From positions 20,514 to 84,513 of the forward strand of contig DATHJY010000011.1 in NCBI GenBank assembly GCA_035489575.1: 64,000 bases of DNA, read 5' to 3'. The notes below the pieces were generated by a model, which was not told the DNA's origin, made no database searches, and was given only the letters and a program-made list of their open reading frames with translations. The number at the start of each line of letters is the position of its first letter. Position 1 is the first letter of the stretch. Positions 5,901 to 17,065 of this stretch are shown here, piece by piece. Source of the stretch: Verrucomicrobiia bacterium. GTDB lineage: Bacteria > Patescibacteriota > Saccharimonadia > Saccharimonadales > JAGQNK01. The position numbers and the translations under genes were made by a program.

Positions 5901-6944
5901 ATGAACACCAAGATGAGTTACCAAAATCAGAAGATTGCCGAAACTGCTGAAGTGCTCAAAGCTCGGCTGAGCCAGCTCGATACCAAAGCCGATATTTTAA
6001 AGGCCACAGAGCTGAAGGCTTTGTATGCAGAAGTTCGCACATTGCCAGCTGATCAGCGGGCCAGTTTTGGCAAAGAAATAAATCAGCTCAAGACTGACCT
6101 AGAACATCTCATAGCCCAGCACAGTGATACCGCCGAACAGCTAGAACCCATAGATGTCACGGCACCATTCGATGTAAATGTAGGCGACCAAAAACCCGCA
6201 CTTCTGCCCAGCCAAAATGGCACCAAGCATCCACTGATGACCGAGCTAGACACTATTCTGGATATTTTTTACCGCATGGGGTTCAACGCTATAGAGTCTC
6301 GGCAGCTCGATGACGACTACCACATGTTCGAGAGCCTCAACTTTCCGGCCGATCATCCTGCCCGTGACGACTACGACACCTTTATGACCACCGAAGGTTT
6401 GATTGCGCCGGCCCACACCAGCACCATGCAAAATAGGGTGTTGTCGGCCAACAAAGAGCGGTTAGAAAACGGCCAACCGATTTCGTACGTCATTCCTGGT
6501 CGCGTCTTTCGCAACGAAGACCTGGATGCTCGACACGAACATACCTTTTATCAGTTAGAAGGTGTTTATGTGGGCAAAGATATTCATGCTGGGCACCTGA
6601 TTGCGGTACTCCAGACTTTTTTCGAGACCTACTACGGCAAAAAAATGGAGGTCAAAACCCAGCCCTTCTACTTCCCATTTACAGAACCTAGCTTTGAGTT
6701 CGCCATAGCCTGCCCATTTTGCGACAAGGCTGGCTGTAATATCTGCGGCGAAGGCTGGCTGGAATTGCTAGGCTGCGGCATGATCCACCCCAATGTGCTC
6801 AAGATGGCCGGCATAGATTCCAACGAATACACCGGCTTTGCGTGGGGTGGAGGTATCGAACGTCTGGTCATGATAAAGCACAACGTAGAAGACATCCGCC
6901 ACTTCGAATCAGGCAAACTAGACTTCCTAAGGCAATTTTCATGA
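5901..6944 (+). CDS. pheS: Phenylalanine--tRNA ligase alpha subunit
   Basis: 347 aa with class II aaRS motifs (FRNEDLDARHEHTFYQLEG, GFAWGGGIERLVM). Confidence 0.95.
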   Translation: MNTKMSYQNQKIAETAEVLKARLSQLDTKADILKATELKALYAEVRTLPADQRASFGKEINQLKTDLEHLIAQHSDTAEQLEPIDVTAPFDVNVGDQKPALLPSQNGTKHPLMTELDTILDIFYRMGFNAIESRQLDDDYHMFESLNFPADHPARDDYDTFMTTEGLIAPAHTSTMQNRVLSANKERLENGQPISYVIPGRVFRNEDLDARHEHTFYQLEGVYVGKDIHAGHLIAVLQTFFETYYGKKMEVKTQPFYFPFTEPSFEFAIACPFCDKAGCNICGEGWLELLGCGMIHPNVLKMAGIDSNEYTGFAWGGGIERLVMIKHNVEDIRHFESGKLDFLRQFS

Positions 6945-8062: not shown

Positions 8063-10560
8063 AAGTTAGTCTGAATTGGATCAAGCAGTTTACAGACGTC
8101 AATATATCTATTGACGAGCTCGTAACCAAGATTGGTGCCCAGCTAGGTGCTGTAGAAGAAGTGACCGATCTGGGTAAAAAGTATCAAGGCATTTTGGTGG
8201 CCAAGGTGATGTCGTGCCAGAAGCATACCAACGCCGACAAACTAAACGTTTGTCTGATAGACGACGGCGGCAAGGCCGAAGGCGTCACTCGTAACCAAGA
8301 CGGTCATGTGCAAGTGGTCTGTGGCGCACCAAATGTCCGCGCCGGGCTGACTGTTGCGTGGCTGCCGCCGGGTGCCACCGTGCCCAGCACGTATGACAAA
8401 GATCCATTTGTGTTAGAAGCGCGCGAAATACGCGGGACCGTTAGCAACGGCATGCTGGCTAGCGCCAAAGAGCTGGCGCTTGGTGACAACCACGACGGTA
8501 TTGTCGAACTGGACACACCAGCAGAGCCTGGTACCTCGTTTGCCGAAGCCTACGAGCTGGACGATCATATTATCGAGATAGAGAACAAGATGTTCACCCA
8601 CCGGCCCGATTGCTTTGGCATCTTGGGTGTGGCCCGCGAAATAGCCGGTATCCAGAACATTCCGTTCAAGAGCCCGGACTGGTACGTGCGCTCGCTAGAC
8701 CGCATAAAGCCTGGTGCAAAAACACTGCCGCTAGAGGTCCGCAACGAGGCTGGCGCCTTGGTGCCACGCTTTATGGCTATTGCCCTAGCAGACGTGCAAA
8801 TGGGCCCGAGCCCACTCATCATCCAGACCTACCTGAGCCGAGTGGGGCTGAAACCTATCAACAACATTGTTGACGTTACCAACTACCTGATGGTTCTCAC
8901 CGGACAGCCGTTGCATGCCTACGACTACGACAAAGTTGTAGCCAAGAGCGGCACCGTTCCTACTCTTATCGCCCGGCAAGCCACCGGCGAGAAGATCAAG
9001 CTGCTCAACGGCAAAGAACCTGTCATCGAAGCCCCGACCGTGGTGATCGCAACCGACAAAGAAGCCATTGGCGTCGGTGGGGCCATGGGCGGAGCCGACA
9101 CAGAAGTAGACGACGACACCAAGAACATCATTCTGGAGTGTGCCAACTTTGACATGTACGCGATTCGGCGGACAGCCATGAAATACGGCTTGTTTACCGA
9201 CGCCGTAACACGATTCAACAAAGGCCAAAGCCCGCTGCAAAATGACATAGTACTGGAAGAAGCCGTTACAACTGTTGCCTATGTATCCAATGGTAGTGCC
9301 GCCAGCCAAGTCTTTGACGTTAAATCACAGCTGCAAAAACCAGCCCCCGTGCAGGTAACCAGCGACTTCATCAATGTGCGACTCGGCTTGCAGCTGCCCG
9401 CCGAGGATATGGCACGCCTGTTAGAGAACGTAGAACTAGTAGTAGAGGTGCACGGCGACGAATTGTCGGTCACGCCACCCTATTGGCGCACCGATATAGA
9501 GATTGCCGAGGACGTCGTAGAAGAAGTAGGGCGCCTGTACGGTTTTGACCACTTGCCGTTGGAGCTGCCCGTACAATCTATCAAGCCCGTCACCCAAGAC
9601 GCTTTGTTTGACCTAAAGTCACAGATTCGTCAGAGTTTGGCAACTGCTGGTGCCAACGAACTACTCACCTACAGCTTTGTGCACGGTGATCTCTTGGCCA
9701 AAACAGGACAGAACAGAGAACAGGCTTTTCAACTGAGCAATGCCCTCAGCCCAGACCTGCAATATTTCCGCCTCAGCCTGACACCCAGTTTGCTCGACAA
9801 AGTGCACCCCAACATCAAGGCCGGCTACGGTCAGTTTGCACTGTTCGAGATTGGTAAGTCCCACATAAGAGGACAGCAGGATCGCGTCGAGCAGCAGGTA
9901 CCCCTCGAACTAAATGCTCTCAGTCTGGTAATTACCGCCGATCCTAAGGCAGCAACAAACCTACAGGGCGCAGCCTTTTACCAGGCCAAACAATATCTGT
10001 CGGTTCTGCTGAAAAACCTTGGAGTGACAGACATATGCATCGAGCCAATTACCGACGAGCTGTCCGACCAGTCAGTCATGGGTATCGTAGCTGCGCCTTA
10101 CAATCGGGCCCGAAGTGCAGTGATCAAGAATCACCAAGGCCACGCCATGGGGATCGTTGGCGAGTTCAAGCCGTCAGTTGCCAAGGCACTCAAACTGCCC
10201 GCACACACTGCCGGTTTCGAAGTAGGATTGCACGCCCTTAAGACGCAGCAGCAATCTTCTTATCATCCCTTGTCTAAGTTCCCTAGTGTTCAGCAAGACA
10301 TTTCGCTCCGAATAACTGCTGACATCGACTATGCGCGTTTGCATGACGAGCTGCAGGCCGGGCTGGCCGAGCTAGACGATAGCCACCTGCAAACTAGGCT
10401 AGAGCCCTTAGACATCTACCAAAAAGATGACGTAAAACACATTACCTTCCGCCTGACAGCAACCCATCACCAAAAGACACTGAAAAGTACAGAGATCAAC
10501 CACCTTCTAGACAATTTGGCCGAGCGCGTTAGCCAAAATCTCGGCGCCGAACGGCTATGA
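8059..10560 (+). CDS. pheT: Phenylalanine--tRNA ligase beta subunit
   Basis: 833 aa. N-terminal tRNA-binding (EMAP) domain, B3/4, B5 and the C-terminal anticodon-binding FDX-ACB domain are recognisable. Start overlaps the previous stop. Confidence 0.95.
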   Translation: MKVSLNWIKQFTDVNISIDELVTKIGAQLGAVEEVTDLGKKYQGILVAKVMSCQKHTNADKLNVCLIDDGGKAEGVTRNQDGHVQVVCGAPNVRAGLTVAWLPPGATVPSTYDKDPFVLEAREIRGTVSNGMLASAKELALGDNHDGIVELDTPAEPGTSFAEAYELDDHIIEIENKMFTHRPDCFGILGVAREIAGIQNIPFKSPDWYVRSLDRIKPGAKTLPLEVRNEAGALVPRFMAIALADVQMGPSPLIIQTYLSRVGLKPINNIVDVTNYLMVLTGQPLHAYDYDKVVAKSGTVPTLIARQATGEKIKLLNGKEPVIEAPTVVIATDKEAIGVGGAMGGADTEVDDDTKNIILECANFDMYAIRRTAMKYGLFTDAVTRFNKGQSPLQNDIVLEEAVTTVAYVSNGSAASQVFDVKSQLQKPAPVQVTSDFINVRLGLQLPAEDMARLLENVELVVEVHGDELSVTPPYWRTDIEIAEDVVEEVGRLYGFDHLPLELPVQSIKPVTQDALFDLKSQIRQSLATAGANELLTYSFVHGDLLAKTGQNREQAFQLSNALSPDLQYFRLSLTPSLLDKVHPNIKAGYGQFALFEIGKSHIRGQQDRVEQQVPLELNALSLVITADPKAATNLQGAAFYQAKQYLSVLLKNLGVTDICIEPITDELSDQSVMGIVAAPYNRARSAVIKNHQGHAMGIVGEFKPSVAKALKLPAHTAGFEVGLHALKTQQQSSYHPLSKFPSVQQDISLRITADIDYARLHDELQAGLAELDDSHLQTRLEPLDIYQKDDVKHITFRLTATHHQKTLKSTEINHLLDNLAERVSQNLGAERL

Positions 10561-12287
10561 AAAAAGCCCTCTGGCTTATCCTGGCCTTTTTATGGGTAAC
10601 GCTGGGCATGGCACCCATAGCACATGCCGGCGTAGACGATTTTGTTGTCAACGATTTCTATGGCCAGTATCGTCTGCATAACGACGTGCATGGGGGCCGT
10701 ATGGAAGTAACAGAATCGATCGACCTGACGTTTTCGGACAACAACCACGGCATCCTGCGTGCCTTGCCGCAGATTAACAGGGGCCATTCACTCCACCTAG
10801 AAGTAAAGTCTGTCAGTCGTGATGGCCAGACCGAGCCCTATTCGTCGTATACCGAGAATGACAACACTGTGCTCAAGATTGGTGACGCTGGCAGAACCAT
10901 CACCGACCACCATAGCTATCAAATTAGCTACGAAATGCAGAACCTCATGGATTTCTACGACGGATTTGACGAGTGGTATTGGAATATCAACGGTACCCAG
11001 TGGAGGCAGCCATTTACCCAGGTAAGGGGCGAGGTCATTTTGCCAGATGGCTGGAAGGCGACAGACAGAACTCCCTCGTGCTATACCGGTCCCCAAGGCA
11101 GTACTGCGCAAAACTGTACACTTGTACCTACCGGTCAAGGGTATACATTCGCCGCAACCCATCCACTTGGTGCGGGCGAAAACCTATCGGTTGCCGTGCC
11201 GATTCAGAAGAGTTTATTTGCTCCTACTACTACGGGTGACTGGGTGCGGCAAAATATTTTGCAGTTAGTGGGGATTGTCGTTGGGCTAGGCGGCGTCTTG
11301 TACGCTTTTAATTTATGGCGCAAACATGGCAAAGATTACAAGGGCAGGGGTGTTATTGTCCCAGAATACAAGCCGCCAAAGGGGCTCAGCCCAGCAGAAG
11401 TTGGATTGCTGATGGACTACAACCTAGACAACCGAGACCTGTCGGCAACCATCATAGACCTAGCCATCCGTGGTTACCTGAAAGTCCATGACGAGGAAAA
11501 GAAACGGCTTGGTCTTTTTACCAAGCATGTATTTAGTTTAGAGGTCGTCAAGGCCGACACCACTGGTCTGAAGCCACACGAGATTGACCTCCTGGGTGCA
11601 CTGTTCAAGCCCTTCCAGGTCGGTACCATCCAAGATATTTCCAAGATAGACAAAACAAAAATGTACGCGGCCGTTACCAAAATTCGCAGCAAGCTCAAAT
11701 CGAGCCTGACCAAAGAACACGGCCTGCTCGAGGAAAGCCCTTCTGGTGCCTACGCCAAACTAATTGGCCTGGCCCTGGTAGCATTTATGATACTTATATT
11801 TACTGGTGCGGGATGGGGATGGCTGATAGGCATGTTGGCAATCATCCTCAGTGCCATACTGGCCATGATTCTGATGCGTCGCCGCAGCCACGCGGGCGTA
11901 GAGGCCTATGAAAAGGTCAAAGGACTCGAGCTGTACATGAAAACAGCTGAAGAGGATCGGCTGAAGATGCTCCAGAGCGTAGATCGCCCATACGCCGCAC
12001 CCTCCAAGACAGTCCACTTGTTCGAGAAACTCTTGCCGTTTGCCATAGCCTTGGGCGTCGAGAAATCCTGGGCTAATCAGTTTGATCATATATACAGTCA
12101 GCCACCCGGTTGGTACAGTGGCAACTTCAGTACATTTAGCACTGTCTACTTTGCGCATAGCCTGACCCAAGGCGTATCAGCCATGAACAGCAGCTTTAGC
12201 GCACCCACTAGTTCTGGCAGCTCCGGCAGCGGTGGCGGAGGTTTCTCTGGGGGCGGTGGAGGTGGTGGCGGGGGTGGGGGCTGGTAG
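10557..12287 (+). CDS. DUF2207-family membrane protein with Gly-rich C-terminal tail
   Basis: 576 aa with a signal/TM segment, an extracellular N-domain, internal TM helices and the terminal SSGSSGSGGGGFSGGGGGGGGGGGW characteristic of DUF2207 proteins. Confidence 0.8.
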   Translation: MKKALWLILAFLWVTLGMAPIAHAGVDDFVVNDFYGQYRLHNDVHGGRMEVTESIDLTFSDNNHGILRALPQINRGHSLHLEVKSVSRDGQTEPYSSYTENDNTVLKIGDAGRTITDHHSYQISYEMQNLMDFYDGFDEWYWNINGTQWRQPFTQVRGEVILPDGWKATDRTPSCYTGPQGSTAQNCTLVPTGQGYTFAATHPLGAGENLSVAVPIQKSLFAPTTTGDWVRQNILQLVGIVVGLGGVLYAFNLWRKHGKDYKGRGVIVPEYKPPKGLSPAEVGLLMDYNLDNRDLSATIIDLAIRGYLKVHDEEKKRLGLFTKHVFSLEVVKADTTGLKPHEIDLLGALFKPFQVGTIQDISKIDKTKMYAAVTKIRSKLKSSLTKEHGLLEESPSGAYAKLIGLALVAFMILIFTGAGWGWLIGMLAIILSAILAMILMRRRSHAGVEAYEKVKGLELYMKTAEEDRLKMLQSVDRPYAAPSKTVHLFEKLLPFAIALGVEKSWANQFDHIYSQPPGWYSGNFSTFSTVYFAHSLTQGVSAMNSSFSAPTSSGSSGSGGGGFSGGGGGGGGGGGW

Positions 12288-12464
12288 CAAAAATAATTAG
12301 TATTGCATATTGTATTAATTGGTTATATAATATATGAACTTTTAGTCGAGCATTGCTCCTAAGGGTGCACATTGACAGATGTAATTCGAATAGTTTGATA
12401 ACTTTTTAGGAATCCTTACTGCTGCAAGCGCTATTGGTTGGATGGTTTTGCTTCGCCATATATT

Positions 12465-12671
12465 TTATGACGAGCCAAAACTGTCCAACAAGACAATAGA
12501 ACTTAGCCGCCGAGCGCCTGAGAAAGTATTAGAAGCGTAGGTTGAAATACGCTTCTTGTGCGTATTTCTCATGGCGATCCGCAGGAAGGGGTGAGCGCTT
12601 GAGCCGGTGTCTGCCGCCTGTGCCGCGATCTGGCCACGCTTGTCGTGACCATTGGTATGGACTTTGTCCAT
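12465..12671 (-). CDS. Possible small ORF (68 aa), doubtful
   Basis: Strong SD (aaaggggtgg) sits 3 nt upstream of the ATG at 12671 (MDKVHTNGHDKRGQIAAQAADTGSS...). The 3' half contains two mutually exclusive perfect hairpins and runs into AT-rich DNA, so the real product may be shorter or the locus may be RNA. Confidence 0.25.
   Translation of the reverse strand: MDKVHTNGHDKRGQIAAQAADTGSSAHPFLRIAMRNTHKKRISTYASNTFSGARRLSSIVLLDSFGSS
12531..12568 (-). promoter_or_regulatory. Pair of mutually exclusive 9-bp hairpins (attenuator-like)
   Basis: agaagcgta (12531-12539) pairs with tacgcttct (12548-12556). The overlapping gaaatacgc (12544-12552) pairs with gcgtatttc (12560-12568). Both cannot form at once. 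Confidence 0.3.
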
Positions 12672-12829
12672 AACCACCCCTTTCTGTGTTTCGATAGAGC
12701 TGGACCTTCTAACGAAGCTCTGGTTCCATGTTCGGGTTCCTCTGGTTGAAGCGGTTGTTCCGCCACTTCCGGCTGACGCCAGAGGAACCCACAGGTCAAG
12801 ATAGTCCTCTCCTCGAAGGAGACGAAAAA

Positions 12830-13012
12830 GTGGCCACATGCACCAATTGCGGTGGTTCTGGCAAAGTTGGTCTGACCAAGCTCAAATGCACTCCGTGCAA
12901 GGGCACCGGCAACATCAGGAAAGAGAACGCCTGCAGTCCATGCAGAGGTACCGGCAAAGTTGGGTTTCCCCAGCGGAACTGTACTCCTTGCAGAGGAACA
13001 GGTCGCCGGTAG
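12830..13012 (+). CDS. Stand-alone DnaJ-type cysteine-rich zinc-finger mini-protein (4 x CxxCxGxG)
   Basis: CTNCGGSG, CTPCKGTG, CSPCRGTG and CTPCRGTG repeats. GTG at 12830 is preceded by GAAGGAGA with 8-nt spacing. The long ORF version starts at ATG 12728. Followed by a 12-bp terminator-like hairpin. Confidence 0.55.
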   Translation: MATCTNCGGSGKVGLTKLKCTPCKGTGNIRKENACSPCRGTGKVGFPQRNCTPCRGTGRR

Positions 13013-13024
13013 GTAAAGGGGGAC

Positions 13025-13062
13025 GTGTCAGTCAAGCGGACGACAGCCTTCTTGGCTGACAC
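13025..13062 (+). terminator. Hairpin after the zinc-finger ORF
   Basis: gtgtcagtcaag/cttggctgacac is a 12-bp stem with one U-G wobble valid only on the plus strand, 13 nt after the stop codon. The U-tract is poor. Confidence 0.45.
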
Positions 13063-13098
13063 TCACCCCCCATTGTTTAAAAAACTACACCGAATTGC

Positions 13099-13148
13099 AT
13101 CTGTCCATCTATCCAAGTCAAGCAAAATTCTGGTTGCTTTGGACAGAT
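13099..13148. repeat. Nested hairpin carrying the GACAGAT box
   Basis: atctgtcca/tggacagat (9 bp) encloses aagcaa/ttgctt (6 bp). Confidence 0.5.
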
Positions 13149-13150
13149 AG

Positions 13151-13180
13151 TTGTGGAAATGTTTTATAGCATGCTATAGT
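13151..13180 (+). promoter_or_regulatory. Candidate promoter with a perfect 14-bp palindromic operator
   Basis: TATAGCATGCTATA (13165-13178) is a perfect palindrome. TGCTATAGT (13172-13180) fits an extended -10. A weak -35 TTGTGG lies at 13151-13156 with an 18-nt spacer. Confidence 0.3.
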
Positions 13181-13666
13181 GAAAAAGCGACGATAGAGGT
13201 AGAGCAACTGCTCCCACCATCGTAGCACTTTGACAGATATATGGTTTGTCTCCCTGAGGCAGTAATGCTTGTCCGCAATAATTTGTGGCCAGCCATTCTG
13301 TCTCATACGAGACTTGATGATCGAGCACGGATACCGACACGTCCCCCAACGTCCTGTTGGTTCCATGCTCTGGAGAGGAGAGACTTCGGTCCGACAGCGC
13401 ACTCCCCCTGCGCAGTTGAAGGGCTTTGCCCGCTCCTCTCCAATCTCGCTTGCTGCTCCAGTCATTGGAAGCAGTACACCTAGTCGAGGTAGACGATCTC
13501 GCCGCCGAGAACGTCTGGAACAACTTCGGTTGTTTTGCCGCTCCACGCCAAGGCACCTCGCTCGGCGAGAGAGATGCTTACATAGCTGTGCTTGCGATAG
13601 ACGCTGTAGTCCACGCGCCTTCCCTGCATCCGGGCAACCGGGTCTCTCTCGTCGCTTTCTAAAAGG

Positions 13667-13740
13667 TCTGGGTTCCGTGACACCTCCGCCGACGCCAGTC
13701 CGCCCGCCCGCCGGCCAGAGTTCTTGTCACGGAACCTAGA
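13667..13740 (+). repeat. Tandem hairpin module U1
   Basis: tctgggttccgtgac (13667-13681) pairs with gtcacggaacctaga (13726-13740): 15 bp including one G-U. The 44-nt loop is C-rich and contains CACCTCC and CCGCCCGCCCGCC. Confidence 0.7.
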
Positions 13741-13763
13741 GTTCTACCAAGAAGGTAACAAGA

Positions 13764-13842
13764 TCTGGGTTCCGGAACATCGTGCTTGCTCAAGCGCCGC
13801 CCGCCCGCCCGTTTGGGTAACACGTCCGTTCCGGAACCCGGA
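13764..13842 (+). repeat. Tandem hairpin module U2
   Basis: tctgggttccggaac (13764-13778) pairs with gttccggaacccgga (13828-13842): 15 bp including one U-G. The loop contains CCGCCCGCCCGCC. Confidence 0.7.
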
Positions 13843-13868
13843 GTTCTCTACAGTTGTAGTACGAGACC

Positions 13869-13960
13869 TGGGTCCCGCGGCTTACTTGCTGCTTGTGCGT
13901 CAGCTGCACCTCCGGCCGCCTCCACACAATCGGCGAGTGCCACACCAGTCGCGGGACCCA
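13869..13960 (+). repeat. Tandem hairpin module U3 (diverged)
   Basis: tgggtcccgcg (13869-13879) pairs with cgcgggaccca (13950-13960): 11 bp. The 70-nt loop contains CACCTCC and GCCGCCTCC. Confidence 0.6.
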
Positions 13961-14073
13961 TCCCTCTCCAAAAGCGAAATCCCCCACCCATATATCTGTC
14001 AGTTAATCAGAATGCAAGAGCCCAAACCTCTCGTGCATTGTGACTAGCACATAATCCACTCTATAACTCTCCT

Positions 14074-14153
14074 AGGCCTCATCCGGCAATAAGCTGTGCG
14101 GTTCAGGACAGATGGTTTCTAGCTGAACGTGCAGATTATTGTCGGATGGGCCT
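14074..14153 (+). promoter_or_regulatory. Long leader hairpin upstream of the RND permease gene
   Basis: aggcctcatccggcaataa pairs with ttattgtcggatgggcct: 18 bp, one bulged C, and two wobbles valid only on the plus strand. It encloses gttcag/ctgaac and ends 50 nt before the ATG at 14204. Confidence 0.4.
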
Positions 14154-14203
14154 TAGTATTTGCTTACGTATGCTAAGCTTTTAGCAATAAGAGGGTCTTT
14201 AGC

Positions 14204-17065
14204 ATGACAGGGCGCAAGAAAACTATCGTTACCAAAGAAAAAGACAAAATGTTGGCAAAATTTACGACGTTCTTCTTTGATCGTCCCCGAATAACAGCCA
14301 TATTGTGGCTGGTTGTGGCAGTTTTTGGTGTTGCCAGCTACACCACGCTCCTCAAGCGCGAAGGTTTCCCGAGTGTGCAGATCCCCATCGCTATCGTAAC
14401 CGGCACCTATGTGACTAATGACCCAGCAAAGGTAGACGCCGAGGCCGCCAAGCCTCTGGCCGAGATTGCCCTGAAACAGGCAAACGTCAACACCGTTACA
14501 ACCCAGAGTTCTGGCAACTTCTTTAGTACCTCCATTCAGTACAAAGAAGGCACCGATACCGCAGCTGCGGCCAAAACCCTAGAGCAGGCTGTAAAAGACT
14601 CAGGCAAACTACCTGCGTCTGCTCGGCTGCAATACAATGTGCCGTACTTTGGCGCAACCGGGGGAGACATCCGGCAGATAGATATAGCAGTATCTTTTTA
14701 CAGCAAGAAAACAGCTTCAGAGGCAGACCTAAATGCCAAAGCTACCCAGGCTGCTACTTGGCTACAAAACAAAAAGATCCCGCATGTTCATGAGGTCTTT
14801 GTAAAAAGTCCACTCGAGTCTGTTGCCGATCCCTCAACCGGGCAGGCGGTTACGATTCAGCGCAGCTTTGACCGCTATGGCAAGCGTGAGGGAGGCCAGG
14901 CCGCCTTCTATAATTCGGTCATCGTCGGCATGTCTGCCAACAAGGGCACCGATGTCATTAAGCTGGACCACGATGTGCGTCAAGCTTTGCAGGAACTTAT
15001 GGGCCAGCCGGGTTTTCAGGACTATGGCGCAGATGTCAGCGCCAGCTTTGCGCCATCTATCGAAGAGAACTTGAGCGAATTGCAACGAGTGCTCCTAGAG
15101 GGACTGTTGGCAGTGCTTATCGTGGGCTCTATTGTTATCGCCATTCGGGCCTCGCTGATCACAGTCATCTCTATGATCACTGTGCTAGTGGCTAGCATTG
15201 CCTTTCTGTATGCGGTCGGGTATTCGCTGAACGTGATAACACTGTTTGCGCTCATACTAGGTCTGGCACTGATAGTCGACGATACCATTATTATGGTAGA
15301 AGCTATCGACGCCGCCCGAGCACGCGAGAAAGATCCACGCAAAGCCGTACAGATAGCTACCAGAAAGGTCAGCCGTGCCATGGTGGCAGCCACCCTGACC
15401 GCCAGCCTCAGTTTTGCGCCACTGTTATTTGTAGGGGGTATTCTGGGCAGCTTTATTCGAGCCATACCTATTACCATCATTGCCTCGCTCCTGATCAGCC
15501 TAGTGGTAGCACTGGTGTTTATTCCGTTCTTTGCTCGCTTCCTGCTACTTGGCAAAAAGCAAATGGGCAAGCAGGCCGTCAAAGAAGTTGCTGCCGGTTT
15601 CGAGGCCAAGCTGGCACAATTTATTGCCAAGCCCATGCTGTGGGCTAGGCATTCTAAACCCAAGTTGTTTGGGGTGGGCATTACGGCTGTTTTGATTGGT
15701 CTGGCATTTATCGGTGCCGGTGGAGCAATTGCTCGGCACGTGGTGTTCAATATCTTTCCGCCTACCAAGGACACCAACGGCCTCGTAATGGCTATTAACT
15801 TCCCGGCCGGTACAACCATTGGCCAAGCCGAGGCTATCGCCGGCAAGGCCGACGAGCTAACTAAGCAAATCGTTGGTGACAACTTTGTGCAGGCTTCTTA
15901 CTACGGAACCGGCAGTGCCCAAACCGGCACCCTGTTTGTACAACTGACGCCGTACAACAAACGCGATATTCGTTCACCAGAAATCGTCAAGCAAGTGCAA
16001 GATCGCTTTACGGCCGATTTCAAAGAAGCCCAGGTGGCCGTGGGCCAACAAGACGTTGGGCCGCCGTCCGCGTCCTTTGTGGTGCAAATAGACACCGCCA
16101 ATCGGGGGGCAGCCTTTCGGGCCGCCAAAGACCTGGCCGCCTACCTGTCCACTGTCGAACTAAAACGCCTAGATAACAGCACTGCGCGTATGAAAAACGT
16201 CACAGTTGCATCGGCAGATGAATACGTTCGGGTTGGCAACAAATCGGTTGTACAGGTTCAGGCCGGTTTTGACGGCACGGACACCACCACCCTGGTAAAT
16301 TTGGCCCAAGAGGCCGTCAAAGACAAGTTTGGTGGCGCCACTCTGGCAAGCTATGGCCTGGCCAACGACGCCATCCATTTCGAACTAGGGCAAGAGGCAG
16401 AGAACCAAGAATCATTCAACGCCCTCCTGCTAGCATTTCCGGTTCTGTTGGCAGCCATGTACGTATTACTAGCGGTGCAATTCCGTTCGCTCTTGCAACC
16501 ACTGCTGATTTTTTTGGCCATACCGTTTAGTTTCTTCGGCATTATGTTGGGCCTCAATCTCACCGATAACGCCATCAGTTTCTTTGCTATGCTGGGCTTC
16601 TTTGCGCTCATTGGTCTGAGCATCAAGAACACCATTCTGCTGACAGATTTTGCCAACCAGGCCAGACGTGCAGGAGCAGACCCTATCGATGCAGCCGTTG
16701 CTGCGCTGGAAGAACGCTTCCGGCCCTTGTTCGCAACCAGCATGACTGCCGTTGTGTCACTCGTACCCTTGGCTATCGCTAGTCCGTTTTGGGAGGGTTT
16801 GGCCGTGGTACTCATCTTTGGCCTACTGTCGAGCACGTTGTTGGTTGTGACCGTCTTTCCGTACTACTATCTGGGGTCGGAGTACTTGCGACTTAAATTT
16901 AAGCGACGCCATGTGGTGTTTTGGTTGATCGCCCTCATCGGTGGGGTGATTGCTTTGTCTGCCCTGGAAAAGCGCACACTTATTGGCCTGTGGCTGCTCA
17001 TTTGTGCGCTGTATCCAATTGTGTATGTTGTTAACAAAAAGCATGTGCTTCCCCGGGTTTTGTAG
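14204..17065 (+). CDS. RND-superfamily efflux transporter permease (AcrB/AcrD/AcrF-like)
   Basis: 953 aa with the N-terminal FFFDRPRITAILWLVVAVFG helix, two large periplasmic loops and 12 predicted TM segments in the RND pattern. The start could instead be the ATG at 14249 (MLAKF...). Confidence 0.85.
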   Translation: MTGRKKTIVTKEKDKMLAKFTTFFFDRPRITAILWLVVAVFGVASYTTLLKREGFPSVQIPIAIVTGTYVTNDPAKVDAEAAKPLAEIALKQANVNTVTTQSSGNFFSTSIQYKEGTDTAAAAKTLEQAVKDSGKLPASARLQYNVPYFGATGGDIRQIDIAVSFYSKKTASEADLNAKATQAATWLQNKKIPHVHEVFVKSPLESVADPSTGQAVTIQRSFDRYGKREGGQAAFYNSVIVGMSANKGTDVIKLDHDVRQALQELMGQPGFQDYGADVSASFAPSIEENLSELQRVLLEGLLAVLIVGSIVIAIRASLITVISMITVLVASIAFLYAVGYSLNVITLFALILGLALIVDDTIIMVEAIDAARAREKDPRKAVQIATRKVSRAMVAATLTASLSFAPLLFVGGILGSFIRAIPITIIASLLISLVVALVFIPFFARFLLLGKKQMGKQAVKEVAAGFEAKLAQFIAKPMLWARHSKPKLFGVGITAVLIGLAFIGAGGAIARHVVFNIFPPTKDTNGLVMAINFPAGTTIGQAEAIAGKADELTKQIVGDNFVQASYYGTGSAQTGTLFVQLTPYNKRDIRSPEIVKQVQDRFTADFKEAQVAVGQQDVGPPSASFVVQIDTANRGAAFRAAKDLAAYLSTVELKRLDNSTARMKNVTVASADEYVRVGNKSVVQVQAGFDGTDTTTLVNLAQEAVKDKFGGATLASYGLANDAIHFELGQEAENQESFNALLLAFPVLLAAMYVLLAVQFRSLLQPLLIFLAIPFSFFGIMLGLNLTDNAISFFAMLGFFALIGLSIKNTILLTDFANQARRAGADPIDAAVAALEERFRPLFATSMTAVVSLVPLAIASPFWEGLAVVLIFGLLSSTLLVVTVFPYYYLGSEYLRLKFKRRHVVFWLIALIGGVIALSALEKRTLIGLWLLICALYPIVYVVNKKHVLPRVL

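What the first reader, a model, noticed from the sequence alone, without database searches (positions are those of the whole stretch)
13667..13960. Three tandem ~100-nt hairpin modules whose stems differ by compensatory base-pair substitutions
Modules U1 (13667-13740), U2 (13764-13842) and U3 (13869-13960) repeat with periods of 97 and 103 nt.

They share the blocks TCTGGGTTCCG, CGGAACC and (U1/U2) GAGTTCT, plus a small covarying hairpin after it (tacc-aagaa-ggta versus ctac-agtt-gtag).

The distal stem differs but stays paired:
- U1 has TGAC/GTCA where U2 has GAAC/GTTC, which is two compensated pairs.
- U3 changes two U1 T-A pairs to C-G: t13674-a13733 becomes c13874-g13955, and t13678-a13729 becomes c13878-g13951.
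- Where U1 and U2 differ at the base of the stem, pairing is kept by G-U or U-G only on the plus strand.

Four compensated changes among three paralogous copies argue for selection on the hairpin rather than on a protein sequence. Translating the repeats gives stop codons in every frame. I know of no described repeat class with 11-15 bp stems, 44-70 nt loops and this period.
Basis: seen in the sequence. Interest (0 to 1): 0.7.

Follow-up and report, generated by a model that had tools for sequence, protein, structure and literature searches.

The report
Hairpin domains of a new structured RNA
The three hairpins are real, selected RNA stem-loops, but they are only the tail end of a roughly 0.8-kb non-coding, heavily folded RNA unit that belongs to an undescribed family found next to exporter genes in Saccharibacteria (tiny parasitic bacteria); its function is still unknown.

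Summary
The three hairpins exist as described: stems of 16, 15 and 14 nt, loops of 42, 49 and 64 nt. Nothing like them occurs elsewhere in the 64-kb window. One side claim is wrong: a + frame is open for 145 codons across all three. That frame is not coding, because substitutions fall 18/14/15 by codon position, against 75/20/401 in the RND gene.

A relative (L085, about 88% protein identity) keeps the region at 78-81% identity, while four-fold degenerate sites are 51.5% identical. L085 has only two modules. Stem changes there are compensatory or are wobbles legal only on the + strand.

The hairpins are three of about nine stem-loops in a 771-nt unit (13231-14001). A 14-bp long-range helix closes the unit. 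A -10-like box and a 5' hairpin precede it.

Eleven such units in nine Saccharibacteria genomes share this build. The closing-helix arms covary (10 of 15 pairs). The units lie upstream of ABC or RND exporter genes. Some carry a tRNA-like element or a small CXXCXGXG zinc-finger ORF directly after the same kind of hairpin.

No Rfam family matches. Best reading: multiplied copies of that pre-ORF hairpin inside a stable, ORF-less RNA. The function, possibly a decoy or scaffold, is inferred only.

The parts
13172..13180 (+). Promoter-like extended -10 box (TG-c-TATAGT) of unit 2
   Evidence: Read. It is conserved as TGtTATAGT in L085. The surrounding stretch 13109-13230 is 87% identical, against 51.5% at neutral sites. 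The consensus promoter scan did not flag it, so this is inferred.
13196..13222 (+). 5' leader hairpin of unit 2 (core GAGC-AACT-GCTC, 13202-13213)
   Evidence: A hairpin sits at the same place in all 11 units, with different sequences: GAGC/GCTC, GAGT/ACTC, AGCC/GGCT. A profile of the leader finds only these units.
13231..13244 (+). Left arm of the closing helix, TGACAGATATATGG
   Evidence: It is 14/14 complementary to 13988-14001 (I12). The arms covary across 9 units: 88.9% of cells paired against 68.7% in shuffles, and 10 of 15 pairs changed on both sides.
13248..13660 (+). 5' domain of unit 2. About six stem-loops, including a three-way junction at 13375-13445 and a long-stem hairpin CGGCGAGAGAGA/TCTCTCTCGTCG at 13563-13654.
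   Evidence: From the minimum-free-energy fold and the consensus fold with L085. Double changes include A-U to G-C, U-A to C-G and G-C to U-A.
13446..13451 (+). TCGCTT, predicted to pair with AAGCGA at 13972-13977. This helix would enclose the 3' half of the unit, including the three modules.
   Evidence: Consensus structure (columns 227-232 with 761-766). The pairs are invariant between the two genomes, so there is no covariation and the helix is tentative.
13667..13740 (+). Module U1: a 15-16 bp stem with a C-rich 42-nt loop
   Evidence: The stem is kept in L085, where the basal G.U becomes G-C.
13741..13763 (+). U1 tail GAGTTCTAC plus the mini-hairpin TACC-AAGAA-GGTA, which contains a Shine-Dalgarno-like (SD-like) AAGAAGG
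   Evidence: The same tail, (A/G)G(T/G)TCTAC, follows the pre-ORF hairpin in other units (L034, L089 and L005). In L085 the mini-hairpin is only 3 bp.
13764..13842 (+). Module U2: a 14-15 bp stem with a 49-nt loop
   Evidence: It is 70% identical to U1. The whole module 13761-13863 is absent from L085, and the gap is bounded by the direct repeats AAGA-TCTGGGT and GAGA-CCTGGGT.
13843..13866 (+). U2 tail GAGTTCTCTAC with the mini-hairpin CTAC-AGTT-GTAG
13869..13960 (+). Module U3: a 13-14 bp stem with a 64-nt loop. It is the ancestral last module of the unit.
   Evidence: Compensated changes appear in L085 (C-G to U-A) and in L093 (G-C to A-U, U-A to G-C).
13972..13977 (+). AAGCGA, the predicted partner of 13446-13451
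13988..14001 (+). Right arm of the closing helix, CCATATATCTGTCA
12303..12331 (+). Promoter-like TTGCAT-N17-TATAAT of the neighbouring unit 1
   Evidence: Read. It is conserved in L085. Inferred.
12374..12388 (+). Left arm of the unit 1 closing helix, GACAGATGTAATTCG
   Evidence: It pairs with 13091-13105, with one U.G wobble that is legal only on the + strand.
12734..12790 (+). Module U0, GGGTTCCTCTGG/CCAGAGGAACCC. It is a paralogue of U1-U3 with the same basal helix, and lies 40 nt upstream of the small ORF.
   Evidence: I20, 12/12. In L085 the changes are U-A to C-G, plus two U-A to U.G.
12808..12822 (+). Mini-hairpin TCTCCT-CGA-AGGAGA, in which an upstream complementary stretch pairs with and hides the Shine-Dalgarno (SD) sequence of the small ORF
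   Evidence: Read. An analogous CTTC-CGAC-GAGG is present in L085. Inferred.
12830..13012 (+). Small ORF of 60 aa with four CXXCXGXG motifs (a DnaJ-type zinc finger). Gene callers missed it.
   Evidence: Pfam DnaJ_CXXCXGXG, E = 2.4e-5, below the curated cutoff. Counterparts lie at the same place in L085, L089, L034 and L041.
13091..13105 (+). Right arm of the unit 1 closing helix, CGAATTGCATCTGTC

Best explanation
**What it is**

U1-U3 are RNA stem-loops on the + strand. They form the 3' part of a roughly 0.8-kb non-coding, heavily folded transcription unit, which is built as follows:
- a -10-like box at about 13172-13180;
- a 5' hairpin;
- a 14-bp closing helix, 13231-13244 with 13988-14001;
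- about nine internal stem-loops.

The unit belongs to an undescribed family of 0.55-1.6-kb 'clamped' hairpin-rich RNAs in Saccharibacteria. Family members lie upstream of ABC or RND exporter genes.

**Origin of the modules**

In family members that encode a small DnaJ-type zinc-finger protein, one hairpin of exactly this type sits just before the ribosome-binding site. It has a G-rich base and a large loop, and a GTTCTAC or GGTCTAC tail follows it. Unit 1 of this window has such a hairpin, U0, with the same basal helix GGGUUCC/GGAACCC. Unit 2 has no ORF, and there the module has been multiplied in tandem. Unequal recombination between the repeated module starts changes the copy number: three here, two in L085. 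The differing distal stems keep each 5' arm matched to its own 3' arm.

**How it most likely works (inferred, not shown)**

The clamp and the terminal hairpins would make a long-lived RNA, possibly released by a double-strand-specific RNase. The repeated modules would then offer several copies of the same site to whatever factor acts on U0. Unit 2 would therefore act as a decoy or scaffold that tunes expression of the zinc-finger gene and perhaps of the exporter.
For: **Shown: the sequence is non-coding but constrained.**
- Window versus L085 identity is 78-81% across the unit. Four-fold degenerate sites of four flanking genes are 51.5% identical (n = 1137), and the adjacent spacer 14002-14147 is 60% identical.
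- Substitutions fall 18/14/15 by codon position in the open frame, against 75/20/401 in the RND gene.
- There are 21 indels, most of 1-2 nt.
- The ORF called over the unit in L085 has no homologue.

**Shown: the structure is conserved.**
- The 786-nt stretch folds with z = -8.1 on the + strand.
- The consensus fold with L085 has 226 pairs. Ten are doubly compensated, and none is broken outside the U2 gap.
- The U3-type stem is also compensated in L093.

**Shown: the functional strand is +.**
- I took pairs predicted from the window alone and looked at those that changed in L085. On the + strand 37 were kept and 16 broken. On the - strand 25 were kept and 30 broken (Fisher P = 0.012).
- Single mismatches inside long Watson-Crick stems are G.T 20 against A.C 7 (P = 0.019).
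- Excess folding energy over shuffles is larger on the + strand in 8 of 8 units.

**Shown: it is a family.**
- There are 11 units in 9 genomes.
- Closing-helix arms covary: 88.9% of cells paired against 68.7% in shuffles, 0 of 500 shuffles reached the observed value, and slid controls gave 23-39%.
- The 5' leader and its hairpin are conserved.
- In L010 a 15-pair hairpin followed by TTTTTT comes directly after the right arm.

**Shown: module position and copy number.**
- The module lies before the ribosome-binding site in unit 1, L089 and L034.
- Copy number differs between the window and L085.
- U1 and U2 are 70% identical, less than the orthologues are to each other. The duplication is therefore older than the split, and L085 lost a copy.
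Against: - There are no expression data. The promoter and RNA ends are read by eye, and the consensus promoter scan found no + strand promoter here.
- Only one close relative exists, so module-level covariation rests on two or three genomes.
- RNAalifold optimises for kept pairs, so the count leans towards the structure.
- Two units (L010 and L034) were found by a scan that required an inverted repeat.
- Arm covariation fits a DNA-level inverted repeat as well as an RNA helix.
- Family members share almost no internal sequence, which is unusual for an RNA with a defined ligand or partner.
- The decoy or scaffold function has no direct support. No shared loop motif was established, beyond frequent CCUCC.
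- Open frames of 145 codons here and 228 in L085 are longer than composition alone readily gives.
Confidence: 0.55

Rival explanations
1. Unit 2, including the three hairpins, is a giant cis-acting 5' leader of the RND exporter gene at 14204. It would be an attenuator or stability element co-transcribed with the gene, not a separate RNA.
For: - It has the same orientation as the RND gene and ends 200 nt upstream of it.
- No convincing intrinsic terminator lies between 14001 and 14204 on the + strand.
- The last 56 nt before the start codon are 93% conserved. They contain a hairpin followed by CTTTTAG just before the ribosome-binding site.
- Every unit sits directly upstream of an ABC or RND exporter gene.
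Against: - In L010 a strong terminator follows the unit directly, and the ABC gene has its own promoter-like site.
- Several relatives have DUF2207 directly followed by the RND gene with no unit at all.
- The spacer 14002-14147 evolves almost neutrally at 60% identity.
- Some units carry their own ORF or a tRNA-like element.
- Internal sequence is not conserved between species, unlike ligand-sensing leaders.
Confidence: 0.17
2. The unit is a DNA element: an invertible segment flanked by 14-bp inverted repeats and flipped by a recombinase encoded elsewhere. It would give phase-variable control of the exporter genes. On this reading the hairpins are incidental or are protein-binding palindromes.
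For: - Perfect 14/14 inverted repeats flank a 771-bp segment next to a transporter gene.
- The arms differ between species but match within each unit. Recombination between the arms would maintain that pattern.
- The outer ends read TG...CA.
Against: - No recombinase, transposase or reverse transcriptase lies within about 13 kb.
- The two places shown and the three similar places not shown for this gene give no sign of the opposite orientation.
- All four non-Watson-Crick pairs in the arm core are G.U on the + strand.
- Strand asymmetry of kept pairs and of excess folding energy points to an RNA.
- A conserved 5' hairpin and a -10 box lie outside the left arm.
Confidence: 0.1
3. The unit is a decaying, ORF-less duplicate of the neighbouring zinc-finger unit. 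The hairpins would be leftovers with no present function. A related variant is that they are remnants of a small mobile element with terminal inverted repeats.
For: - Unit 2 lacks the ORF but keeps tails with Shine-Dalgarno-like remnants.
- Units are present in some relatives and absent in others.
- Content between the arms varies widely.
Against: - Unit 2 is better conserved than unit 1: 84% against 72% in the BLAST alignments. It is far above the neutral level of 51.5%.
- Changes in stems are compensated.
- There are no other copies in the window, or in about 0.9 Mb of related loci outside the units.
- There is no target-site duplication.
- There is no match in phage or plasmid collections.
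- Hits in viral contigs are at chance level and lack extended stems or tails.
Confidence: 0.06
4. The hairpins are a TIGR-type stem-loop guide-RNA array. That would mean tandem hairpins with variable palindromic stems whose loops carry two short spacers, used by a Nop-domain Tas protein.
For: Such arrays consist of tandem stem-loops with 'variable but consistently palindromic' stems, and they occur in Candidate Phyla Radiation bacteria (PMC12045711).
Against: - No Nop-domain protein is among the genes within about 13 kb.
- The loops are 42-64 nt, with no paired box-like motifs flanking two 8-12-nt spacers.
- The loops are about 75-80% conserved between genomes, unlike spacers.
- The hairpins are embedded in a larger folded unit.
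Confidence: 0.02

Closest known systems
Processing stems that flank stable RNAs (16S and 23S rRNA precursors, RNase III substrates)
   Same: Both have a long-range helix formed by sequences at the 5' and 3' sides of a highly structured RNA of several hundred nucleotides. The arms covary between species. Some related units contain tRNA-like elements, as rRNA spacers contain tRNAs. The comparison rests on established knowledge of rRNA operons, not on a test made here.
   Different: No rRNA is enclosed and no Rfam rRNA match is found. The helix is 9-15 bp, or about 20 bp with an internal loop in unit 1. RNase cleavage was not tested.
Multi-hairpin decoy RNAs such as CsrB, RsmY and RsmZ
   Same: Both are non-coding RNAs made of repeated stem-loop modules whose number varies between related genomes. 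The modules resemble a site found in an mRNA leader. The comparison is recalled from knowledge of the Csr/Rsm system.
   Different: There is no GGA loop motif and no known binding protein. The modules here have 14-16 bp stems and 42-64-nt loops. This is a functional analogy only, with no evidence of membership.
Large ornate bacterial RNAs (GOLLD, ROOL, OLE, HEARO)
   Same: They share a size of 0.5-0.8 kb or more, many hairpins, no coding capacity and a narrow phylogenetic range. GOLLD and ROOL often lie next to tRNA genes, and some units here contain tRNA-like elements.
   Different: No covariance-model match appears even at E = 10, or at gathering score in related loci. Those families have conserved core sequences. 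These units share little beyond their ends.
TIGR stem-loop arrays of TIGR-Tas systems (PMC12045711)
   Same: Both are tandem hairpins with variable but palindromic stems. Such arrays are reported in Candidate Phyla Radiation bacteria.
   Different: There is no Tas or Nop gene nearby, no box C/D-like motifs and no dual short spacers. The loops are larger and are conserved.
The anti-TRAP (rtpA) operon of Bacillus subtilis
   Same: There, a roughly 53-aa DnaJ-type zinc-finger protein is encoded behind a long structured leader that reads a tRNA, and an efflux-type gene follows it. This is recalled from memory. Pfam gives only a faint Anti-TRAP hit for the L034 ORF (E = 0.003).
   Different: No T-box match is found. 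The leaders here are much longer and clamped. No TRAP system is known in these bacteria.

Membership tests
Conserved structured RNA (generic) | Base pairs are kept through compensatory changes in orthologues aligned independently of the structure | tested here: met
   Ten doubly compensated pairs and none broken outside the U2 gap. For the structure predicted from the window alone, changed pairs were kept 37 and broken 16 on the + strand. The U3-type stem is also compensated in L093.
Conserved structured RNA (generic) | Purifying selection at nucleotide level without codon periodicity | tested here: met
   78-81% identity against 51.5% at four-fold sites. Codon phases are 18/14/15, against 75/20/401 in the RND control.
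Conserved structured RNA (generic) | The RNA is actually transcribed from the + strand | not testable with these tools
   No transcriptome data are available. Strand is inferred from G.U asymmetry.
Any Rfam 15 family (including GOLLD, ROOL, OLE, HEARO, T-box, tRNA, tmRNA, group I and II introns) | Covariance-model score at or above the gathering threshold | tested here: not met
   No match in the window or in L010, L034, L041, L085 and L089. At E up to 10 only microRNA or snoRNA noise appears in 12000-14600. The only real matches are the tRNA model to the tRNA-like elements of L005 and L010.
TIGR-Tas stem-loop array | An adjacent Tas protein with a Nop domain | tested here: not met
   Pfam scans of the ORFs I submitted from 16 to 27334 show only housekeeping families and no Nop domain. 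The precomputed Pfam families for the genes downstream of the RND gene agree.
TIGR-Tas stem-loop array | Each loop holds two 8-12-nt spacers flanked by box C-like and box D-like motifs | tested here: not met
   No repeated motif pair is visible in the three loops. The loops are conserved between genomes.
Integron attC sites | R''/R' core sites RYYYAAC ... GTTRRRY at the hairpin ends, with cassette ORFs between sites | tested here: not met
   The hairpin ends read GGGTTCC ... GGAACCC. The modules are 23-26 nt apart with no ORF between them.
REP/BIME elements or miniature inverted-repeat transposable elements | Many dispersed copies in the genome, with target-site duplications for the transposable type | tested here: not met
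   The motif is confined to this locus in 64 kb. It is absent from the related loci outside the units. The flanks of the 14-bp repeats differ.
Invertible DNA segment | Inverted repeats flank the segment | tested here: met
   The repeat is 14/14.
Invertible DNA segment | Both orientations are present in a population, and a site-specific recombinase is present | tested here: inconclusive
   No recombinase lies within about 13 kb. The places returned for this gene show one orientation. Raw reads could not be examined.
Type III toxin-antitoxin RNA array (ToxI-like) | Tandem direct repeats of about 34-40 nt directly upstream of an endoribonuclease toxin gene | tested here: not met
   Tandem Repeats Finder reports no array. 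The units are about 100 nt. The downstream gene is an RND transporter.
Protein-coding gene | Frame conserved between relatives, third-position bias and detectable homologues | tested here: not met
   Frame-shifting indels, no phase bias and no homologue of the L085 ORF.

The most novel reading that the evidence does not exclude
These units are a new class of large, clamped, modular RNAs specific to Saccharibacteria. They would be long-lived RNAs, or RNA-protein particles that can carry a tRNA-like domain and encode their own small zinc-finger partner. Their repeated hairpin modules would bind that partner, or an RNase, to control the neighbouring ABC and RND exporters. The three hairpins would be the variable-copy binding platform of one such RNA.
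Probability: 0.3. Interest if true: 0.85.

Novelty: new variant of a known kind. Interest (0 to 1): 0.62.

Why it matters
- Candidate Phyla Radiation bacteria have tiny genomes of about 1 Mb with very little non-coding DNA. This lineage nonetheless keeps almost 2 kb of ORF-poor, strongly folded sequence under selection as strong as that on its proteins.
- Large structured RNAs are rare in bacteria, and each one found so far has opened a new line of biology. This family is not in Rfam and I found no paper on it.
- Its build gives concrete, testable handles: a covarying 5'-3' clamp, terminal hairpins, multiplied hairpin modules, an optional tRNA-like domain and an optional embedded zinc-finger ORF.
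- Its fixed position in front of exporter genes suggests a link to efflux or envelope functions in an epibiotic parasite.
- If the units are only long leaders, the result is still useful. It corrects gene calls, such as the spurious 228-aa ORF and the missed 60-aa zinc-finger gene.

Tried and rejected
- **Rfam.** I searched at gathering score and at E up to 10. Only noise appeared, such as mir-77 and mir-3017 on hairpins.
- **ARAGORN.** No tRNA or tmRNA in the window.
- **Nucleotide BLAST.** A search of the 1.9-kb gap against 80 related RND loci found nothing beyond the same genome.
- **Protein searches.**
  - The ORF called over the unit in L085 matches only itself.
  - The 60-aa zinc-finger ORF gave no hits in the word-indexed search.
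  - The exhaustive search found only generic CXXCXGXG-domain proteins.
- **Phage and plasmid collections.** No match.
- **Viral-contig pattern scan.** 46 single, chance-level hits, none with an extended stem or the tail motif.
- **TTGACA of the left arm as the -35 box of the promoter.** Rejected as the main reading. A -10-like box and a covarying 5' hairpin lie upstream of it in every unit, and a proper -10 downstream of it is missing in several units. A second promoter in some units is not excluded.
- **The 15-nt pairing 13184-13198 with 13644-13658 (I16).** Rejected because L085 breaks it.
- **Units 1 and 2 as recent duplicates.** No sequence similarity was detected beyond short motifs.
- **Aligning hairpins from different units by their stems to count covariation.** Rejected as circular. 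Only orthologous or flank-anchored comparisons were used.
- **Literature searches.** Searches for structured RNAs in Saccharibacteria and Patescibacteria gave nothing relevant except the TIGR-Tas paper.
Full report
**Setting**

The window is a gene-dense Candidatus Saccharibacteria genome. The best matches to its RND protein in the species-level genome set are all Saccharibacteria, at 66% identity or less. The finding lies in a 1.9-kb ORF-poor gap. The gap sits between a DUF2207 membrane-protein gene (10557-12287) and an AcrB/MMPL-type RND transporter gene (14204-17065). G+C rises to 0.57-0.61 in 13300-14000, above the coding flanks.

**Checking the observation**

The arms are 16, 15 and 14 nt at 93-94% complementarity, and the loops are 42, 49 and 64 nt. 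The periods, the shared blocks and each cited compensated pair check out base by base.

The motif is unique to this place:
- The paired pattern occurs twice, against 0.01 expected.
- Long hairpins are seven times denser here than in the rest of the window (P = 2e-5).

One claim is false. The + frame starting at 13667 has no stop. It is open from 13610 to 14047, 145 codons. A gene caller even placed a 228-aa ORF over the homologous region of a relative.

**It is not coding, yet it is constrained**

L085 is a contig from another sample. Its DUF2207, PheT, RND and FKBP proteins are 87-93% identical to those of the window, and it carries the same gap.

Evidence against coding:
- Substitutions in the open frame fall 18/14/15 on codon positions 1, 2 and 3. 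The RND gene gives 75/20/401.
- There are 21 indels, most of 1-2 nt.
- The L085 ORF has no homologue among 5.8 billion proteins.

Evidence for constraint:
- Four-fold degenerate sites of the four flanking genes are only 51.5% identical (n = 1137).
- The unit is 78-81% identical.
- The spacer just downstream of it (14002-14147) is 60% identical.

The sequence is therefore held as tightly as a protein gene, but evenly over all positions.

**The constraint is on pairing, and on the + strand**

- The 786-nt stretch folds far better than dinucleotide shuffles: z = -8.1 on the + strand and -6.7 on the - strand.
- The consensus fold of the window with L085 has 226 pairs. Ten are doubly compensated, and none is broken outside the U2 gap.
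- RNAalifold favours kept pairs, so I also took the structure predicted from the window alone and asked what happened to pairs that changed in L085. On the + strand 37 were kept and 16 broken. On the - strand 25 were kept and 30 broken (P = 0.012).
- Inside long Watson-Crick stems found without regard to strand, single mismatches are G.T 20 times and A.C 7 times.
- Excess folding energy over shuffles is larger on the + strand in 8 of 8 units.
- Within the finding itself:
  - The U3 stem shows C-G to U-A and G.U to G-C in L085.
  - The U1 base shows G.U to G-C in L085.
  - In a third species, L093, the U3-type stem changes G-C to A-U and U-A to G-C.

**Copy number**

L085 has U1 and U3 but lacks U2. 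The 103-nt gap is bounded by the repeated module starts AAGA-TCTGGGT and GAGA-CCTGGGT. U1 and U2 are 70% identical, which is less than the orthologues are to each other. The duplication is therefore older than the split of the two genomes, and L085 most likely lost a copy by unequal recombination or slippage.

**The larger unit**

The hairpins are the last three of about nine stem-loops. A perfect 14-bp long-range inverted repeat encloses them: TGACAGATATATGG at 13231 and CCATATATCTGTCA at 13988.

A second pair, at 12374 and 13091, encloses the other half of the gap. That half (unit 1) contains:
- a long folded leader;
- a fourth hairpin of the same kind, U0 (GGGTTCCTCTGG/CCAGAGGAACCC, 12734-12790), compensated in L085;
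- a mini-hairpin that hides the ribosome-binding site;
- a 60-aa ORF with four CXXCXGXG motifs, which gene callers missed.

**A family**

Synteny, a scan for arm pairs and a scan for small Cys-rich ORFs gave 11 units in 9 genomes: the window (two), L085 (two), L005, L089, L010, L034, L041, L093 and L094.

All units have:
- a -10-like box about 45 nt upstream of the left arm;
- a 5' hairpin whose sequence covaries;
- the conserved motif G-Y-A-C-W-TTGACAG;
- a body of 550-1565 nt full of long hairpins;
- the right arm ending in CTGTC;
- a 3' hairpin, which in L010 is a 15-pair hairpin followed by TTTTTT.

The arms differ in every unit but stay complementary. Over 15 pairs, 88.9% of cells are paired against 68.7% in shuffles, with 0 of 500 shuffles reaching the observed value. 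Slid controls give 23-39%. Ten pairs changed on both sides, and all four non-Watson-Crick pairs in the core are G.U on the + strand. L010 and L034 were found by a scan that required the repeat. The others were found independently of it.

Content varies between units:
- Five units encode a small CXXC zinc-finger protein.
- Three contain a tRNA-like element:
  - L005 scores 52 bits to the Rfam tRNA model and has a 6-nt anticodon loop.
  - L010 scores 41.7 bits and has insertions of 83 and 37 nt.
  - L034 was recognised by eye only.
- Four units have neither, including the one that holds the finding.

In the ORF-bearing units (unit 1 here and in L085, L089, L034), a hairpin of the U type precedes the ribosome-binding site. 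It has a G-rich base and a large loop, and its tail is (A/G)G(T/G)TCTAC. In L041 the hairpin before the ORF has a 7-bp stem and a T-rich tail instead. U1 and U2 keep the U-type tail and a Shine-Dalgarno-like remnant.

Every unit lies directly upstream of an MsbA-like ABC exporter gene followed by the RND gene, or upstream of the RND gene itself. Some relatives have no unit at all.

**What it most likely is**

The shown facts add up to a + strand, non-coding, strongly folded RNA unit in which U1-U3 are multiplied copies of the family's pre-ORF hairpin. How it acts is inference.

The clamp and the terminal hairpins resemble the processing and stabilising stems of stable RNAs. U0 and U1-U3 share the basal helix GGGUUCC/GGAACCC within this lineage, so any factor acting on U0 would also meet U1-U3. 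The differing distal stems would stop the near-identical arms from pairing out of register. I therefore favour a stable decoy or scaffold RNA, with low confidence in that last step.

**Rivals**

- **Giant leader of the RND gene.** This remains possible, because no clear terminator follows the unit here.
- **Invertible DNA segment.** It explains the arms but not the strand asymmetry, and there is no recombinase nearby.
- **Decaying duplicate or mobile remnant.** Contradicted by the conservation level, by the absence of other copies and by the absence of matches in phage, plasmid or viral sets.
- **TIGR stem-loop guide array.** The closest published look-alike, but it fails on the Tas gene, the box motifs and unit size.

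**Novelty**

No Rfam family matches any unit. Full-text searches found no description. I rate it as a new variant within the broad kind of large structured bacterial RNAs. The family itself appears undescribed.

Noticed in passing
window 12830-13012: A 60-aa ORF with four CXXCXGXG motifs (a stand-alone DnaJ-type zinc finger), starting at GTG. Gene callers missed it and instead called a 68-aa ORF on the opposite strand. Counterparts lie at the same place in L085, L089, L034 and L041. The exhaustive protein search finds only generic CXXCXGXG-domain proteins.
   Followed up: partly
L005 1508-1579; L010 1548-1731; L034 about 1047-1135: tRNA-like elements sit inside related units. L005 has a 6-nt anticodon loop. 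L010 matches the tRNA model at 41.7 bits but has an 83-nt insertion in the D loop and 37 nt in place of the anticodon loop. L034 has a 13-nt anticodon loop. They keep the acceptor and T arms, so they could be RNase P processing signals rather than decoding tRNAs. None is found in the window.
   Followed up: partly
window 13610-14047; L085 7142-7828: Long open frames (145 and 228 codons) run through the folded non-coding unit, and one is annotated as a protein in a public assembly. They show no codon-phase bias and have no homologues, so they are spurious. They are longer than base composition alone readily gives.
   Followed up: yes
window 13142-13152 and 14107-14117: Two extra copies of the arm motif GGACAGAT lie downstream of each right arm. 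Each could pair with the right arm (ATCTGTCC) as an alternative 3' hairpin that competes with the clamp. In L034 and L041 the right arm likewise overlaps a 3' hairpin (TGTCCGTTCCC...GGGAACGGACA). The copy at 14107 is not conserved in L085.
   Followed up: partly
window 14080-14203: A 15-bp hairpin at 14080-14148 has a 24-nt insertion in its loop in L085. It is followed by a 93%-conserved stretch with the hairpin CTTAGTAT...ATGCTAAG and CTTTTAG, immediately before the ribosome-binding site of the RND gene. This may be the RND gene's own promoter or attenuator.
   Followed up: no
L094 5832-7396: The largest unit, at 1565 nt. It has at least eight long hairpins and two tandem paralogous modules (GGCGTGAGGGCACTAG...GTGCCCCACGCC, at about 6307-6395 and 6484-6569). 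Module multiplication therefore happened independently in another lineage.
   Followed up: partly
window 12438-12490: A long hairpin in the unit 1 leader (TTGGATGGTTTTG...CAAAACTGTCCAA). It gives a false mir-77 hit in Rfam (30.7 bits against a gathering score of 83). It is kept in L085, where two wobble pairs become Watson-Crick pairs.
   Followed up: partly
window 12229-12264 versus 13679-13698: The 5' part of the U1 loop (GACACCTCCGCCGACGCCAG) is 82-83% complementary over 17-18 nt to the Gly-rich 3' end of the DUF2207 coding region. This may be only G-rich against C-rich low complexity.
   Followed up: no
window U1 and U3 loops; L010, L034 and L089 module loops: CCUCC or CACCUCC, the sequence complementary to a ribosome-binding site, recurs in the loops of the large hairpins. 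It could pair with GGAGG-type ribosome-binding sites. Enrichment was not tested statistically.
   Followed up: no
L088, L087, L086 versus window, L085, L093, L094, L089, L005: The units are present or absent among relatives at a similar distance. In L088 the DUF2207 gene is followed by the RND gene after 90 nt. The window and L085 lack the ABC exporter gene that separates the unit from the RND gene in L005.
   Followed up: partly
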